From: a virus
Strand: one strand, 5' to 3'
IMG/VR virus record: IMGVR_UViG_3300045988_060496
Coordinates: 114,625-178,624 of that record
DNA: 64,000 nt
The number at the start of each line of letters is the position of its first letter. Positions within the stretch are counted from its first letter, which is position 1. Under the pieces are notes generated by a model that was given only the letters and a program-made list of their open reading frames with translations, had not been told where the DNA came from and ran no database searches. Positions 48,728 through 64,000 of the stretch are shown here, piece after piece. The position numbers and the translations under genes are program-made.

Positions 48728-48937
48728 TGAAAAAGTTTATTTTAAGCCTGGGGATTGTGTTACTTTACGGTAGTGTAAAGTAATGCATTCTCCAGTTATG
48801 CTTGTTCTAAGAAGAGAAGCAGCTTTATTTAAAGATAACCAAGGATTACGAGGATTAAGATGTAGATGGTTTACTGATTCCGGACTTATGTAGGAAGCAG
48901 TGTTTAATACTAAGGATTTAATTAAAGTAGAAGAGTA

Positions 48938-49516
48938 ATGGCTAACTAGGAAGAATTACAAAAAGCATTTATGGCATATCTAATACAAGATGCCGCTGCG
49001 TAGGGAATACAAGTACAATCTGAATAGGATTTACAAGCTTATGCTGAACAATTAGGTGAAGACGGCATTAAAGCTAAGTATCAGGAATTTATGCAGAAAA
49101 TGCAAGGAGGAGTAATGGCTAGGCTTGGAGCTAAGCTTGAGTATTATAAGAAGCTAAAAGGAGTATGTCCAGAAGGAGAAGAGCTTGTATATTTTAAGCA
49201 AGGCGGTAGAATCTGTAAAGCTTGCCAGAAAGCACAAAAAGGAACTAAAGTTACTAAGAAAGCTAATGAAGTTGATAAATTTAAGGCTGGAAGAGCTTAG
49301 TATAAGAAAGATATGAAATCTGCTAGAGACGAAGCCTCAAGAGATTCTATATCAATCAATAAATACAATGATTAGGAAATCATGGCCAATAAAGGACATA
49401 AGGGTAATTTCCAGGGAGGAAAATGGGTTCCCGACAGAAAACAATATGCTAAGAAAGACGCTTGTGGCTCAAAAATGAAAGTCAATAAGTGCGGTTCCAA
49501 AATGAAAAAGAAATAA
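48938..49516 (+). CDS. TAG-recoded Lys-rich protein with Cys pairs (192 aa, 4 in-frame TAG)
   Basis: ATG 48938 ... MQKMQGGVMARLGAKLEYYKKLKGVCPEGEE...CKACQ... continues through TAG at 49298-300 to TAA 49514-16. Confidence 0.5.
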
Positions 49517-49547
49517 TAAGATTATCTAATGTGTATGATAATGATTA

Positions 49548-50114
49548 ATGATTATGAATGTATTTAACTATAACACTTTAACTAAATAGCTAGAAATAAA
49601 TGAACCAGAGATATTGCTAGTTAAGGAATTTAAGGCTTTAATCTAGAGGGATAAATCTGCAGAAAAGGATAGAGCTACTAGAGAACTATCTTACATTTAT
49701 TTAGCTATAGACTGGAAAAGTCCATACAGTTAGTATTCGGAACATGAACGACATGACGAAGCTATTAGCGATTCTGGATTGACAGAGTCGGAATTTAATG
49801 ACCCTATATTTAGAGAAGCTTGTAGGAAATACAGAGCGTTACAAGATTCAAACAAGTCAATAAAATTACTAGAAGCAGCTAAAAGAGCTGCAGACTAGTT
49901 TATTGATTATTTCGAAACTATTGTAGATTTAAATGAGCGTGATAATAACGGCAAACCAGTATTCCAGGCTGAAAAAGTAATGAAGGAAATGGCTACCCTT
50001 CACAAAGTTCATGAAGAACTCATAACACTAGAAGACTAGGTTAAGAAAGAACTTACTGAACAATCTACTGTTAGAGCTGGAGCTGTGGATGGTTTTGACC
50101 CAGGAGACTTTTAA
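49548..50114 (+). CDS. TAG-recoded protein immediately upstream of TerL (position of a small terminase subunit; identity not established)
   Basis: Frame-0 ORF MIMNVFNYNTLTK-Q-LEINEPEILLVKEFKALI-Q-RDK... to TAA 50112-14, ending 2 nt before TerL ATG. Confidence 0.45.
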
Positions 50115-50116
50115 TT

Positions 50117-61922: not shown

Positions 61923-62000
61923 GATATACAATATAAAAATCGATTTAGATGATAAATCGTAGGATATTACTTCTAAAAACCGTTGATTGGCAAAAAAGTA

Positions 62001-62098
62001 CTGCTAGTAGGCAGCAACGCGAATAATGGCAGCAATGCAGGTCTCAGCTATTTCAATTCTAACAATGACGTCAGCAATGCCAATTCCAATGTCGAGTT
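62001..62098 (+). repeat. DGR template repeat TR
   Basis: A-rich intergenic copy ctgctAgtAggcagcAAcgcgAAtAAtggcAgcAAtgcAggtctcAgctAtttcAAttctAAcAAtgAcgtcAgcAAtgccAAttccAAtgtcgAgtt between target gene and RT. Confidence 0.7.
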
Positions 62099-62239
62099 AT
62101 TATATATTTAGAAACATTTTATTATTTTTTTTTAGTTTGCTAAGTAATATCCTTGCCTCTAGGCAAAAGATAACGTAGTGTTGAATGAAGGGTGTTAGTA
62201 GGTTAATTCTCGAACGCTTCCGATGAAATATATAAAAAA

Positions 62240-63514
62240 TTGAAACGTGTAGGATATTTGCACGAGAAAGTATACGCTGAAGATAACATCGAACTAGCTG
62301 ACGATAAAGCTAGAAGAAATAAGTCTATTAGATGTGGAATCAAGCAGCATGATAAGAATAGATTAAAAGAAAATAAGGAATTATCCGATAAGTTAAGGGA
62401 TTTGATTTATCAAACCTCTGAATATAGTACCTTTATAATATACGAACCTAAAGAAAGATTAATCTTTAGACTTCCATACTATCCAGATAGAATAACTCAC
62501 CATGCTATAATGAATATTATGGAGCCTATTTGGACTAGTATATTTATAGACCAAACATATTCCTCTATACGAAATAGAGGTATTCATAAAGTAGAGTATG
62601 ATTTGTTCAAGGTGTTATAGAAACATCCAGAAGAAACAAAGTATTGCTTGAAAATGGATATAAAAAAATTCTATCCTTCTATAACTCACGACATTTTATA
62701 CGAAATGTTATAGAGAAAGATAAAGGATAAAAAACTATTAAAACTGTTGAAAGAAATAATTTATTCAGCGAAGGGAGTTCCTATTGGAAATTATCTATCA
62801 CAATTCTTTGCAAATTTATATCTGACATATTTTGACCACTGGGTAAAAGAGGAGTTAAAATGTAAGTACTACTTTCGATATGCTGACGATATTGTGATTC
62901 TTGGTAATGACAAGAATTATTTGAGAAATGTATTAGTATCTATAAAACTATATTTGAAACAGGTTCTTAACCTAGAGTTGAAGCCTAATTATCAAATATT
63001 CCCTGTAGAAAGCAGAGGTATTGATTTCGTAGGCTATAAATTCTATCATACTCATGTTCTACTGAGAAAATCTATAAAAATGAGGATGTTTAGGCTTATA
63101 AATCTATATAAATAGAATAAGATTGATAAAGATGAATTGAATAGAAGAATGAGGTCTTATTTTGGATAGATGAAATTTTGCAACTCTAAGAACTTGCTGA
63201 GAAAGGTAGAGGAGTTAACTGGATTGAAATTCTCTAACTGGAATGGAAAAGAAGTTAACATATCTAAGTTTTATAATAAATATATTCACATTGTAGAGGT
63301 TATTGATTATGACAATCATTTTCGAGTGCATTTCATGTATAACAATAAACCCTACTATTTTAAAAGTAAGAATAGGAGATTACACTATTCTTTGCTTAGA
63401 TACAAATTTCCTATAAATTTTAAAATAACACCTTATGTTAGAGCCGAATAGAATACAAATGGACGTTTATCCTTAGACAATCCAAAAACTTGGGAACGGT
63501 ACTTATTACTATAA
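62240..63514 (+). CDS. DGR reverse transcriptase, TAG-recoded (track ORFs 62240.., 62747.., 63170.. are one frame joined by TAG codons)
   Basis: YADDIVILG (RT YxDD box), RLPYYPDRITHHAIMN, IGNYLSQFFANLYL; all three track ORFs are in the same frame (offsets 507 and 930 nt); ends TAA 63512-14. The only in-frame start candidate found was TTG at 62240, so the 5' end is uncertain. Confidence 0.65.
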
Positions 63515-64000
63515 CTATGATATAAAAGAAATTAGTGTTGAAGTACTTGATTTAGACAATACCATAAAAGAAAAAACTTACTATAGTTTTATCTAGGTAT
63601 TATTAAATGGACAGCCTAATTACAAAGATTGTGTAAAAGCTATAGTTAGAAGATTCCTTACAGTCGATGAAGAATTTGATTTAATCAATTCATATAATAG
63701 CTATTCAGAAAATCTTACTTCTGATTCTGAAGTTATTAATGAATATAAGGAATATCTTAACATATTAAAATAGATAAAAGCTAAAGTCAAGGAAGATTTT
63801 GCTAAATTATGATATATAGAAATGGTAAGTTAATATTACAGGTCCAAAAAGATATTCTAGAACTTGTAGAACAAGTTTAGCAAAGAGTACAAAAGAACAT
63901 TGGAGCTATATATAAAGGGTCGTAGTTAGTCTGGCTTACCGTATACGATGCTGTTAGAAGCTGTTTTGGTAGCGGAACTTGGCTACAAGACAGACCTTGG

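What the first reader, a model, noticed from the sequence alone, without database searches (positions are those of the whole stretch)
48783..64000. Late/structural module is unreadable in the standard code: in-frame TAG codons throughout, TAA/TGA as the only stops
From ~48.8 kb to the window end the ORF track shows only short fragments, although the DNA is clearly protein-coding. When TAG is treated as sense, long genes appear in single frames. A 787-aa large terminase (50117..52480) carries ~20 in-frame TAGs. A 723-aa portal-like gene, several 240-610-aa tail proteins and a 424-aa reverse transcriptase follow the same pattern. Every one of these genes terminates with TAA or TGA. The early minus-strand genes contain no in-frame TAG. 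This is the pattern reported for stop-codon-recoded gut phages, where lytic-cycle genes only become translatable once a suppressor tRNA is expressed.
Basis: seen in the sequence. Interest (0 to 1): 0.9.

Follow-up and report, generated by a model that had tools for sequence, protein, structure and literature searches.

The report
Amber-recoded late genes, crAss-like phage
The packaging, portal, tail and reverse-transcriptase genes of this large crAss-like gut phage use the stop codon TAG as an ordinary glutamine codon, read by two phage-encoded suppressor tRNAs; this is real but already well documented for this phage group.

Summary
From about 48.7 kb to the window end, standard-code ORFs cover 0-33% of the DNA. 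With TAG read as sense they cover 78-100%.

- **Late genes:** eleven + strand genes carry 117 in-frame TAGs and no in-frame TAA or TGA. They include TerL, portal, a DGR-targeted tail protein and the DGR reverse transcriptase. TAG supplies half of their glutamine codons.
- **Early genes:** twenty-three long minus-strand genes hold 195 CAA/CAG codons and no TAG.
- **TAG means Gln:** in related phage genomes the window's TAG positions carry CAA/CAG in 52% (TerL) and 77% (portal) of non-TAG cases.
- **Suppressors:** two CUA-anticodon tRNAs flank the strand switch at 42-44 kb. supB is built like the phage's own tRNA-Gln(UUG). supA has an orthologue with a CUG (Gln) anticodon.

A TAG-free island (44.3-48.7 kb) lies between supB and the recoded block.

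The phage is crAss-like and best fits the Zeta group. Amber recoding of late genes, CTA suppressors and DGRs are published for that group. The translational-timing role is inferred, not shown. Verdict: real, ordinary, already known.

The parts
48714..48938 (+). First recoded gene of the late block (74 aa, 2 in-frame TAG, stop TAA). It overlaps the end of the last TAG-free gene.
   Evidence: The orthologue is called as a 74-aa gene in the public contig L079.
48938..49516 (+). Recoded gene of unknown function (192 aa, 5 TAG).
   Evidence: No Pfam or PHROG hit.
49548..50114 (+). Recoded gene (188 aa, 5 TAG), phrog_16390, function unknown.
50117..52480 (+). Large terminase subunit (787 aa, 19 in-frame TAG, stop TGA).
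   Evidence: phrog_6681 8e-63. tblastn gives 26-28% identity to crAss-like TerL. TAG columns in relatives are mostly CAA/CAG.
52672..54843 (+). Portal protein (723 aa, 28 in-frame TAG, including adjacent pairs).
   Evidence: phrog_6547 1e-47 and PF16510. The only PDB hit is the crAss001 portal gp20, 1e-12. 77% of non-TAG codons at TAG columns are Gln.
54845..55573 (+). Recoded gene of unknown function (242 aa, 9 TAG, with three consecutive TAGs at codons 12-14).
   Evidence: No family or PDB hit.
55586..56317 (+). Recoded gene of unknown function (243 aa, 4 TAG).
56473..58047 (+). Recoded gene (524 aa, 12 TAG) with a weak 'tail protein' match only.
   Evidence: phrog_788 1e-4. No meaningful PDB hit.
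58047..59885 (+). Recoded gene of unknown function (612 aa, 21 TAG).
59891..60103 (+). Small recoded gene (70 aa, 2 TAG).
   Evidence: The orthologue is called in L079.
60105..61922 (+). Tail protein and DGR target (605 aa, 6 TAG). The variable repeat lies at 61800-61897 in its C-terminus.
   Evidence: phrog_5302 6e-82. VR/TR pair.
62001..62098 (+). DGR template repeat. All 21 differences from the VR lie at TR adenines.
62240..63514 (+). DGR reverse transcriptase (424 aa from a TTG start, 5 in-frame TAG). It has a GNYLSQ motif whose Q is encoded by CAA.
   Evidence: PF00078 1e-19 and phrog_1423 7e-112..
63435..63812 (+). Recoded gene (125 aa, 3 TAG). A further recoded ORF starts at 63809 and runs off the window.
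44175..44247 (+). supB, an amber suppressor tRNA (anticodon CUA). Its layout matches the phage's own tRNA-Gln(UUG). It is found in almost all TAG-recoded relatives whose stored upstream flank reaches that far.
41733..41803 (-). supA, a second amber suppressor tRNA (anticodon CUA) on a different scaffold. Orthologues in relatives carry CUA, UUA or CUG (Gln) anticodons.
41835..42006 (-). RAGATH-14 RNA, 31 nt 5' of supA. This order is conserved in relatives.
44264..48727 (+). TAG-free + strand genes between supB and the recoded block (0 TAG in the seven ORFs tallied, against 30 CAA/CAG). They include a PD-(D/E)XK exonuclease and a GroES-like protein. Three recoded minus-strand ORFs are embedded in the island; two are listed as separate parts and the third (about 45944-46135) is inferred from L079.
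   Evidence: These genes are also TAG-free in L079 and L082.
43632..44036 (+). Small recoded gene (134 aa, 3 TAG) upstream of supB, outside the finding's coordinates.
   Evidence: The orthologue is called as a 133-aa gene in L079 and L080.
45555..45947 (-). Minus-strand recoded gene (130 aa, 2 TAG), phrog_15610 'protease', with an HExxH-like motif.
46211..46552 (-). Minus-strand gene with one in-frame TAG (113 aa).
   Evidence: Called as a 110-aa gene in L080. The family hit is weak.
37726..38187 (-). PD-(D/E)XK endonuclease (PF11645) with 3 in-frame TAGs, inside the minus-strand tRNA array.
   Evidence: PF11645 2e-23 over residues 9-136. phrog_5018.
33932..34324 (-). Second PD-(D/E)XK endonuclease (PF11645) with 3 in-frame TAGs, next to tRNA-Ser.
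   Evidence: PF11645 6e-10 and phrog_5018 3e-18.
30389..30461 (-). The phage's ordinary tRNA-Gln(UUG), the closest paralogue of supB in the window.

Best explanation
This is the packaging, virion and DGR module of a large crAss-like phage, written in genetic code 15, where TAG means glutamine. Relatives have genomes of about 180-195 kb, and the phage best fits the Zeta group.

Shown here:
- TAG is a frequent sense codon in these genes, making up half of all Gln codons. It shows no +4 or -1 context different from CAA/CAG and occurs in runs of two or three.
- TAA and TGA are the only terminators in the block.
- Related genomes interchange TAG with CAA/CAG at the same positions.
- The phage encodes two CUA-anticodon tRNAs of tRNA-Gln ancestry.
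- Long early, replication and auxiliary genes avoid TAG completely as a sense codon. They almost avoid it as a stop (4 of 55 minus-strand ORFs, each with a nearby in-frame back-up stop).

Inferred:
- After infection of a standard-code Bacteroidota-type host, TAG-free genes are translated at once.
- supA and supB accumulate, are charged with Gln by the host system, and outcompete release factor 1 at UAG.
- Only then do TerL, portal, tail proteins, the DGR RT and some endonucleases become full length. In 10 of 11 late genes the first TAG lies within codons 4-80, so without suppression only short fragments would be made.
- Recoding therefore acts as a translational gate on late functions.
For: - ORF coverage under four stop-codon models.
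- Per-gene TAG counts and stop codons: 0 of 195 early Gln codons are TAG, against 117 of 233 late ones.
- A chance probability of about 5e-19 for the TerL frame.
- Family hits appear only on read-through translations.
- All 45 TerL genes from relatives at 67% identity or more carry 11-31 in-frame TAGs and, apart from one stop in three probably mis-framed copies (L025-L027), no other in-frame stop. The two relatives at 49-50% identity carry none.
- Of the non-TAG codons at the window's TAG columns, 190 of 367 (TerL) and 274 of 356 (portal) encode Gln, against a background of about 3%.
- Suppressor tRNAs: supB has the same layout as tRNA-Gln(UUG), and the supA orthologue in L042 has anticodon CUG.
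- The code boundary is conserved in relatives down to 74% TerL identity.
- The published model and proteomic validation in crAss-like phages: PMC7886860, bioRxiv 10.1101/2021.08.26.457843, PMC9523058, PMC12386605.
Against: - No expression, tRNA-charging or proteomic data exist for this phage, so timing is inferred from layout alone.
- The partition is not clean. Small TAG-containing genes sit in the tRNA array and upstream of supB.
- The only peptidoglycan-hydrolase-like gene seen (18771-19262) is TAG-free. That does not fit a simple 'lysis genes are gated' version of the model.
- No release factor, GlnRS or amidotransferase gene was found in this 64-kb window. How RF1 competition is overcome is therefore unknown.
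- The host and its genetic code are not known from the window.
Confidence: 0.9

Rival explanations
1. Recoding is real but has no regulatory role. Once suppressor tRNAs were acquired, TAG drifted into any gene expressed after the suppressor accumulates (codon capture in an AT-rich genome). Purifying selection keeps it out of genes needed earlier.
For: TAG has the same neighbouring-base context as CAA/CAG and sits at about 50% of Gln codons in nearly every late gene, as expected for a neutral synonymous codon. TAG positions turn over rapidly among close relatives. TAG also occurs in assorted small genes outside the late block. Borges et al. describe depletion of TAG stops in low-GC phages as a precursor state.
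Against: The boundary between 0% and 50% TAG use is sharp and conserved down to 74% TerL identity. First TAGs lie very early in 10 of 11 late genes. This rival predicts the same partition as the gating model, so sequence alone cannot separate them.
Confidence: 0.25
2. The main function of the suppressors is to attack the host. Read-through of host UAG stops damages host and defence proteins, and TAG in phage genes is a secondary consequence.
For: Yutin et al. propose this (PMC7886860), and it is discussed for Zeta phages (PMC12386605). Here there are two suppressors. In sibling genomes supA carries an ochre (UUA) anticodon although TAA remains their main stop and no in-frame TAA occurs. That is hard to explain by phage decoding needs alone.
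Against: It does not explain why half of all late-gene Gln codons are TAG, or why early genes exclude TAG. Nothing in the window measures any effect on the host.
Confidence: 0.15
3. TAG encodes an amino acid other than glutamine. ARAGORN labels both tRNAs 'Pyl', so pyrrolysine is one candidate.
For: The ARAGORN label follows from the CUA anticodon. Glu, Asp and Lys are the next most common residues at TAG columns.
Against: Gln is by far the commonest residue at TAG columns, at 52% and 77%. The commonest partner codon is CAA, two mutations away from TAG, so the link is at amino-acid level. supB matches the phage's tRNA-Gln in layout, and supA has a CUG-anticodon orthologue. Both match the standard tRNA model at 57-66 bits. 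No pyl genes were seen among the ORFs searched.
Confidence: 0.02
4. The block is a decayed (pseudogenised) region or an assembly artefact.
For: The only support is the fragmented look under the standard code.
Against: There are 117 in-frame TAGs but no in-frame TAA or TGA. The same genes, with TAGs at shifting positions, recur in dozens of independent assemblies.
Confidence: 0.01

Closest known systems
TAG-to-Gln (code 15) recoded crAss-like phages (Ivanova 2014; Yutin 2021, PMC7886860; Borges 2021/2022, bioRxiv 10.1101/2021.08.26.457843; Peters 2022, PMC9523058)
   Same: In-frame TAG in TerL, portal and structural genes. Replication and early genes are compatible with the standard code. The phage encodes CUA suppressor tRNAs. 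TAG aligns with Gln. The structural genes form one contiguous recoded unit.
   Different: The phages analysed gene by gene by Borges et al. are about 105 kb. This lineage is about 180-195 kb and carries a tRNA array of at least 23 genes. No lysis cassette could be identified in the window, so their 'lysis genes most strongly recoded' result could not be tested.
Zeta crAss-like phages with amber suppression and a DGR (ctHMy13, ctoVY1, cthgQ11, 3717_85572; PMC12386605, Table 1)
   Same: Genome size of relatives is about 180-195 kb, against the published 176-189 kb. GC is 35.5% against 34.5-35.1%. The window alone has 23-25 tRNAs. Both have a CTA suppressor and amber suppression that includes the RT gene. 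Both have a DGR with a GxxxSQ RT motif, a C-terminal VR in a tail-fibre protein and no Avd gene. The RT is 424 aa against 414 aa.
   Different: No named Zeta sequence was available for direct comparison or phylogeny. The paper's Table 1 lists 'CTA' as the suppressor anticodon for these phages without saying how many genes, and a search of its text found no mention of UUA-anticodon variants, a tmRNA or RAGATH-14.
E. coli supE (glnV44) amber suppressor, tRNA-Gln CUG-to-CUA (own knowledge)
   Same: supA differs from its CUG-anticodon orthologue in L042 at anticodon position 36, the supE route, plus a few stem positions. It presumably inserts Gln.
   Different: supA is phage-encoded and works with a second, unrelated Gln-type suppressor. 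It supports TAG at 2.5% of late-gene codons rather than rescuing rare nonsense mutations.
Theta (HDV-like) ribozymes flanking suppressor tRNAs in recoded gut phages (PMC10879173)
   Same: A structured RNA lies directly next to a suppressor tRNA in a TAG-recoded gut phage. The slot is linked to self-cleaving ribozymes.
   Different: Theta ribozymes lie within about 5 nt of the tRNA and are proposed to cut its 3' trailer. Here Rfam found no HDV-like element near either suppressor. Instead RAGATH-14 lies 5' of supA, and a hammerhead core occupies the supA position in other phages.
Diversity-generating retroelements of phages (Bordetella BPP-1 type; own knowledge)
   Same: An RT, a 98-nt TR/VR pair with all 21 differences at TR adenines, and a VR at the 3' end of a tail-protein gene.
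   Different: The RT and the target gene both contain in-frame TAGs. No Avd-like accessory gene is visible between the target and the RT.

Membership tests
Code-15 (TAG=Gln) recoded phage with a mixed-code genome | Conserved late genes (TerL, portal) carry multiple in-frame TAGs and no in-frame TAA or TGA. | tested here: met
   19 TAG in TerL and 28 in portal; 117 across 11 genes. Profile hits span the TAGs.
Code-15 (TAG=Gln) recoded phage with a mixed-code genome | TAG positions correspond to glutamine in homologues. | tested here: met
   CAA/CAG make up 52% (TerL) and 77% (portal) of non-TAG codons at TAG columns, against about 3% background.
Code-15 (TAG=Gln) recoded phage with a mixed-code genome | The phage encodes a suppressor tRNA with anticodon CUA. 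| tested here: met
   Two are present: 41733-41803(-) and 44175-44247(+). Their Gln ancestry is shown.
Code-15 (TAG=Gln) recoded phage with a mixed-code genome | Part of the genome (early and replication genes) is readable in the host's standard code. | tested here: met
   0 TAG in 6,671 codons of 23 long minus-strand genes. The + strand genes of the 44.3-48.7 kb island are TAG-free. Exceptions are listed under parts.
Code-15 (TAG=Gln) recoded phage with a mixed-code genome | The host uses the standard code. | not testable with these tools
   The host is not identified from the window. The literature predicts Bacteroidota hosts for such phages.
Code-15 (TAG=Gln) recoded phage with a mixed-code genome | Peptides with Gln at TAG positions are detected. 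| not testable with these tools
   This has been done for other crAss-like phages (PMC9523058) but not for this one.
Crassvirales (crAss-like), Zeta group | TerL and portal are homologous to crAss-like phage proteins. | tested here: met
   TerL tblastn hits fall mainly in crAss-like phages and Flavobacterium/Bacteroides phages, at 25-29% identity over about 80% of the protein. The only PDB hit for the portal is crAss001 gp20, 1e-12. phrog_6681 and phrog_6547 also match.
Crassvirales (crAss-like), Zeta group | The genome is 145-192 kb with many tRNAs. | tested here: inconclusive
   The window is only 64 kb. Contigs carrying TerL at 74-100% identity mostly reach 176-195 kb. The window has 23 tRNAs by ARAGORN and 2 more by Rfam.
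Crassvirales (crAss-like), Zeta group | TerL falls inside the Zeta clade in a phylogeny. | not tested
   No named Zeta sequence was reachable. The best hits in the phage collection are the unannotated records MT835470.1 and MT835539.1, at 43-44% identity.
Crassvirales (crAss-like), Zeta group | crAss signature genes are present (MCP, IHF, giant RNAP with a DxDxD motif). | not tested
   None was recognised in the genes of this window that were searched. They presumably lie elsewhere in the genome.
Diversity-generating retroelement | An RT plus a TR/VR pair that differs only at TR adenines, with the VR at the 3' end of the target gene. | tested here: met
   RT PF00078 1e-19. The 98-nt repeats differ at 21 positions, all TR adenines. 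The GNYLSQ motif is present.
Theta-ribozyme / suppressor-tRNA unit | A minimal HDV-like ribozyme lies within about 5 nt of the suppressor tRNA. | tested here: inconclusive
   No HDV-like family was found at E<=1 in 41300-44700. Rfam may lack a theta-specific model, and the published descriptor was not run.

The most novel reading that the evidence does not exclude
The supply of suppressor tRNA may itself be controlled through RNA processing in a way not yet described. supA sits 31 nt downstream of a RAGATH-14 RNA and its terminal hairpin. In about a dozen ~100-kb phage contigs (crAss-like in size), a type-III hammerhead core occupies exactly that slot. A tRNA, which is an RNase P/Z substrate, and a self-cleaving ribozyme therefore look like interchangeable 3' cleavage modules of the same non-coding RNA. 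On this reading supA would be made as part of the RAGATH-14 precursor and released by cleavage. Alongside this, the supA anticodon toggles between CUA, UUA and CUG among near-identical genomes. That suggests ongoing code evolution, or a host-directed ochre/amber read-through function.
Probability: 0.12. Interest if true: 0.55.

Novelty: already known. Interest (0 to 1): 0.25.

Why it matters
For annotation, the window must be translated with a mixed code: table 15 for the late block and a handful of small genes, table 11 elsewhere. Otherwise TerL, portal, the DGR and the tail genes are missed.

For biology, it is one more clean example of a published pattern, namely late-gene amber recoding in crAss-like (Zeta-type) gut phages. 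The public protein collection already holds these genes as full-length calls. The finding therefore does not open a new question.

Three side observations are the only parts that might add something new:
- two Gln-derived suppressors;
- supA anticodon variants in sibling genomes;
- RAGATH-14 upstream of supA, with a hammerhead core in the same slot in other phages.

Tried and rejected
- **Megablast of 48783-64000 against GenBank phages:** no match. Nothing near-identical at DNA level was found in that collection.
- **Naming the relatives:** cluster membership and contig records gave no source names or accessions that link to named Zeta genomes. No paper mentions MT835470 or MT835539.
- **PDB sequence searches:** TerL and three unknown late proteins gave nothing useful. 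Their 'tail' label stays unverified.
- **Pfam on 20 long early ORFs:** no release factor, GlnRS or amidotransferase.
- **Promoter and terminator scan of 41-50.2 kb:** sigma-70-like sites are fewer than in shuffled sequence (30 against 40). The only notable terminator-like site is a bidirectional hairpin at 42850-42863. The scan does not cover Bacteroidota or phage-RNAP promoters, so transcription units cannot be inferred from it.
- **Special TAG context:** the +4 and -1 bases are distributed as for CAA/CAG. Context-dependent read-through was rejected.
- **Apparent TAG-rich ORFs at 26157-26951(-), 41019-41609(+), 28950-29585(-) and 36886-37329(-):** their TAGs lie upstream of the real start, or in frames overlapping better ORFs or tRNAs. 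They were rejected as recoded genes.
- **RAGATH-14 as a general partner of suppressor tRNAs:** rejected. In ~100-kb phages it has no adjacent tRNA.
- **TAA recoding in genomes whose supA has anticodon UUA:** rejected. They have no in-frame TAA and the same stop usage.
- **Literature search for RAGATH-14:** no paper found.

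
Full report
**Observation.** The window is 35.5% GC. With the standard code, ORFs of at least 150 aa cover 0.15, 0.12, 0.00 and 0.33 of the four 4-kb bins between 48 and 64 kb. With TAG read as sense they cover 0.91, 1.00, 0.93 and 0.78. Reading TGA as sense changes nothing, and reading TAA as sense gives much less.

- TerL 50117-52480: 787 aa, 19 TAG.
- Portal 52672-54843: 723 aa, 28 TAG.
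- Five proteins of 242, 243, 524, 612 and 605 aa.
- An RT of 424 aa, counted from a TTG at 62240, with 5 TAG.
- Several small genes.

Eleven late genes contain 117 in-frame TAGs in 4,676 codons and no in-frame TAA or TGA. Nine end in TAA and two in TGA, and they are tightly packed. At the local TAA+TGA frequency, a 787-codon frame free of both has a chance of about 5e-19.

**Are they genes?** The read-through translations hit the following families:
- TerL: phrog_6681, 8e-63.
- Portal: phrog_6547, 1e-47, and PF16510.
- Tail protein: phrog_5302, 6e-82.
- Reverse transcriptase: PF00078, 1e-19, and phrog_1423, 7e-112.

The portal's only match among solved structures is gp20 of crAss001 (1e-12). 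The other four large proteins have no convincing family or PDB match. Calling them tail proteins is a guess from position.

**What TAG encodes.** I fetched 51 related loci from IMG/VR.
- All 45 TerL genes from relatives at 67% identity or more carry 11-31 in-frame TAGs and essentially no other in-frame stop. The one exception is a single stop in L025-L027, probably a frame or alignment problem. The two relatives at 49-50% identity (L046, L048) carry none. L046 gains nothing when TAG is read as sense.
- In codon-level alignments, the non-TAG codons at the window's 19 TerL TAG columns are CAA/CAG in 190 of 367 cases. Glu (59) and Asp (30) come next, and the background Gln frequency is about 3%.
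- At the 28 portal TAG columns, Gln accounts for 274 of 356 cases.
- The commonest partner codon is CAA, two substitutions from TAG. The equivalence is therefore at amino-acid level, not a matter of mutational proximity.
- TAG supplies 117 of 233 Gln codons in late genes. Its flanking bases match those of CAA/CAG. It occurs as doublets and once as a triplet.

This is full reassignment, not context-dependent read-through.

**Decoding machinery.** ARAGORN finds 23 tRNAs and Rfam adds two more plus a tmRNA. Two tRNAs have anticodon CUA.
- **supB (44175-44247, +).** It has the same length, D-arm, variable loop and U1-A72 pair as the phage's own tRNA-Gln(UUG) at 30389-30461, and that tRNA is its best match in the window. 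It is present in nearly all TAG-recoded relatives whose stored flank reaches that far upstream.
- **supA (41733-41803, -).** It uses a different scaffold. Its orthologues in sibling genomes carry CUA (most), UUA (nine to eleven loci) or, in L042, CUG, which is a normal Gln anticodon. This is the classical supE route (own knowledge).

The two suppressors flank the point near 43-44 kb where gene orientation and GC skew switch. No release factor, GlnRS or amidotransferase was found among the long ORFs of this window. The window covers only about a third of the genome.

**Distribution of the two codes.**
- Twenty-three long minus-strand genes contain 195 CAA/CAG and no TAG. They include a helicase, NAMPT, SPFH proteins, an OmpA-like protein, an AAA ATPase, a glucosaminidase and a radical-SAM protein.
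- Only 4 of 55 minus-strand standard-code ORFs end in TAG. Each has an in-frame TAA or TGA 1-23 codons further on. TAG is thus avoided as a stop as well.

The partition is nevertheless a mosaic.
- Two PD-(D/E)XK endonuclease genes (PF11645) inside the tRNA array carry three in-frame TAGs each.
- So do smaller genes at 43632-44036(+) and 45555-45947(-). The gene at 46211-46552(-) carries one TAG.
- Conversely, the + strand genes from 44264 to 48727, directly downstream of supB, have no TAG against 30 CAA/CAG.
- This boundary is conserved in relatives at about 100% and 74% TerL identity.

**Mechanism.**
- *Shown:* TAG is a Gln codon in the late block. Gln-type amber suppressors are encoded. Early genes are compatible with both codes.
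- *Inferred, following Borges et al. and Yutin et al.:* early genes are translated by the unmodified host apparatus. The suppressors accumulate, and only then can late proteins be completed. In 10 of 11 late genes the first TAG falls within codons 4-80, so unsuppressed products would be short.

Sequence alone cannot separate this gate from neutral codon capture or from a host-damaging role of the suppressors. The glucosaminidase-like gene in the TAG-free block argues mildly against a simple lysis-gating version.

**What is known.**
- TAG-to-Gln recoding restricted to late genes, with phage suppressor tRNAs, is described for crAss-like phages (PMC7886860; bioRxiv 10.1101/2021.08.26.457843).
- It has been validated by metaproteomics in two crAss-like phages (PMC9523058).
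- The Zeta group paper lists phages of 176-189 kb and 34.5-35.1% GC with 23-27 tRNAs, a CTA suppressor, amber suppression and a DGR, including amber codons in RT genes (PMC12386605). The window fits that profile.
- I could not place it phylogenetically against a named Zeta genome.
- The public protein collection already holds a TerL about 99.7% identical (2 differences in 787 aa), in a 2,365-member cluster. Neighbouring genes on near-identical contigs are called at full length.

The finding is therefore real, correctly interpreted and already known.

**Side observations.**
1. A complete DGR lies inside the recoded block: VR 61800-61897, TR 62001-62098, with all 21 differences at TR adenines.
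2. RAGATH-14 RNA (173 bits) lies 31 nt 5' of supA, and this order is conserved in relatives. In about a dozen ~100-kb phage contigs, the same RNA and hairpin are followed at that position by a type-III hammerhead core and then RAGATH-6. The hammerhead match is below Rfam's gathering score but has the canonical core. This suggests that supA is cut out of a RAGATH-14 precursor. I found no paper on RAGATH-14 and no HDV-like theta ribozyme next to either suppressor.
3. Genomes whose supA has a UUA anticodon still use TAA for 87% of late-gene stops and have no in-frame TAA.
4. A tmRNA-like gene lies at 22778-23341(-).

Noticed in passing
window 41835-42006(-) and 41733-41803(-); L055 683-951; L002, L005, L008, L014, L017, L054: RAGATH-14 RNA plus a conserved hairpin lies 31 nt upstream of suppressor tRNA supA, and relatives keep this order. 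In about a dozen ~100-kb phage contigs, a type-III hammerhead core (below Rfam's gathering score) followed by RAGATH-6 occupies the same slot. A tRNA and a ribozyme therefore look interchangeable as the 3' neighbour of this RNA.
   Followed up: partly
supA orthologues in L001, L002, L004, L006, L010, L038-L041 (UUA); L042 (CUG); L015, L016, L023 (odd loops): The anticodon of the supA scaffold varies among near-identical genomes: CUA, UUA (ochre) or CUG (Gln). Genomes with UUA still stop at TAA (59 TAA, 9 TGA) and have no in-frame TAA.
   Followed up: partly
window 61800-61897 (VR), 62001-62098 (TR), 62240-63514 (RT): A complete diversity-generating retroelement targets the C-terminus of the tail protein at 60105-61922. 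All 21 TR/VR differences lie at TR adenines. No Avd-like gene is visible.
   Followed up: yes
window 62204-62245: The RT frame has no ATG near its start, so a TTG at 62240 is the likely start codon. An ATG at about 62226 lies in the +1 frame just before an A6 run. This could be a slippery site or a homopolymer error.
   Followed up: no
window 22778-23341(-): Rfam tmRNA match (66 bits, gathering score 47) directly upstream of tRNA-Ile. ARAGORN did not call it. The match spans 564 nt against a 374-position model, so it contains insertions.
   Followed up: no
window 33932-34324(-) and 37726-38187(-): Two PD-(D/E)XK endonuclease genes (PF11645) sit between tRNA genes, and each carries 3 in-frame TAGs. 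From my own recollection, PF11645 includes a tRNA-intron homing endonuclease. They may be free-standing homing endonucleases whose translation is delayed by recoding, as Borges et al. proposed for an intron endonuclease.
   Followed up: partly
window 24958-25030(-) and 29401-29477(-): Rfam calls two further tRNA-like genes (39.5 and 31.7 bits) that ARAGORN missed.
   Followed up: no
window 6034-6846, 18518-18784, 21109-21783, 29602-29868 (all -): These are the only early ORFs that end in TAG under the standard code. Each has an in-frame TAA or TGA 1, 6, 6 or 23 codons downstream. At 6031-6036 the arrangement is TAG-TAA in tandem.
   Followed up: yes
window 18771-19262(-): A glucosaminidase-domain (PF01832) protein, the only cell-wall hydrolase candidate seen, lies in the TAG-free block.
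   Followed up: no
window 6037-8801(-): An NAD-salvage pair: a NAMPT-like gene (PF04095, PF18127) sits next to an ORF with a phosphoribosyltransferase-like motif. The second ORF has no Pfam hit.
   Followed up: no
L042, L047, P0003: TerL of some close relatives (86-88% identity) is interrupted by an insertion of about 1.2 kb carrying intein and homing-endonuclease domains (PF05203, PF05204, PF14528). The window's TerL is uninterrupted.
   Followed up: no
window 41396-41732(-): About 340 nt of non-coding sequence 3' of supA is almost identical in L054, although the supA scaffolds differ. It may be another structured RNA. Rfam found nothing there at E<=1.
   Followed up: no
window about 43-44 kb: The cumulative GC-skew minimum and the switch of gene orientation coincide, and both fall between the two suppressor tRNAs. 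This could mark a replication origin.
   Followed up: no
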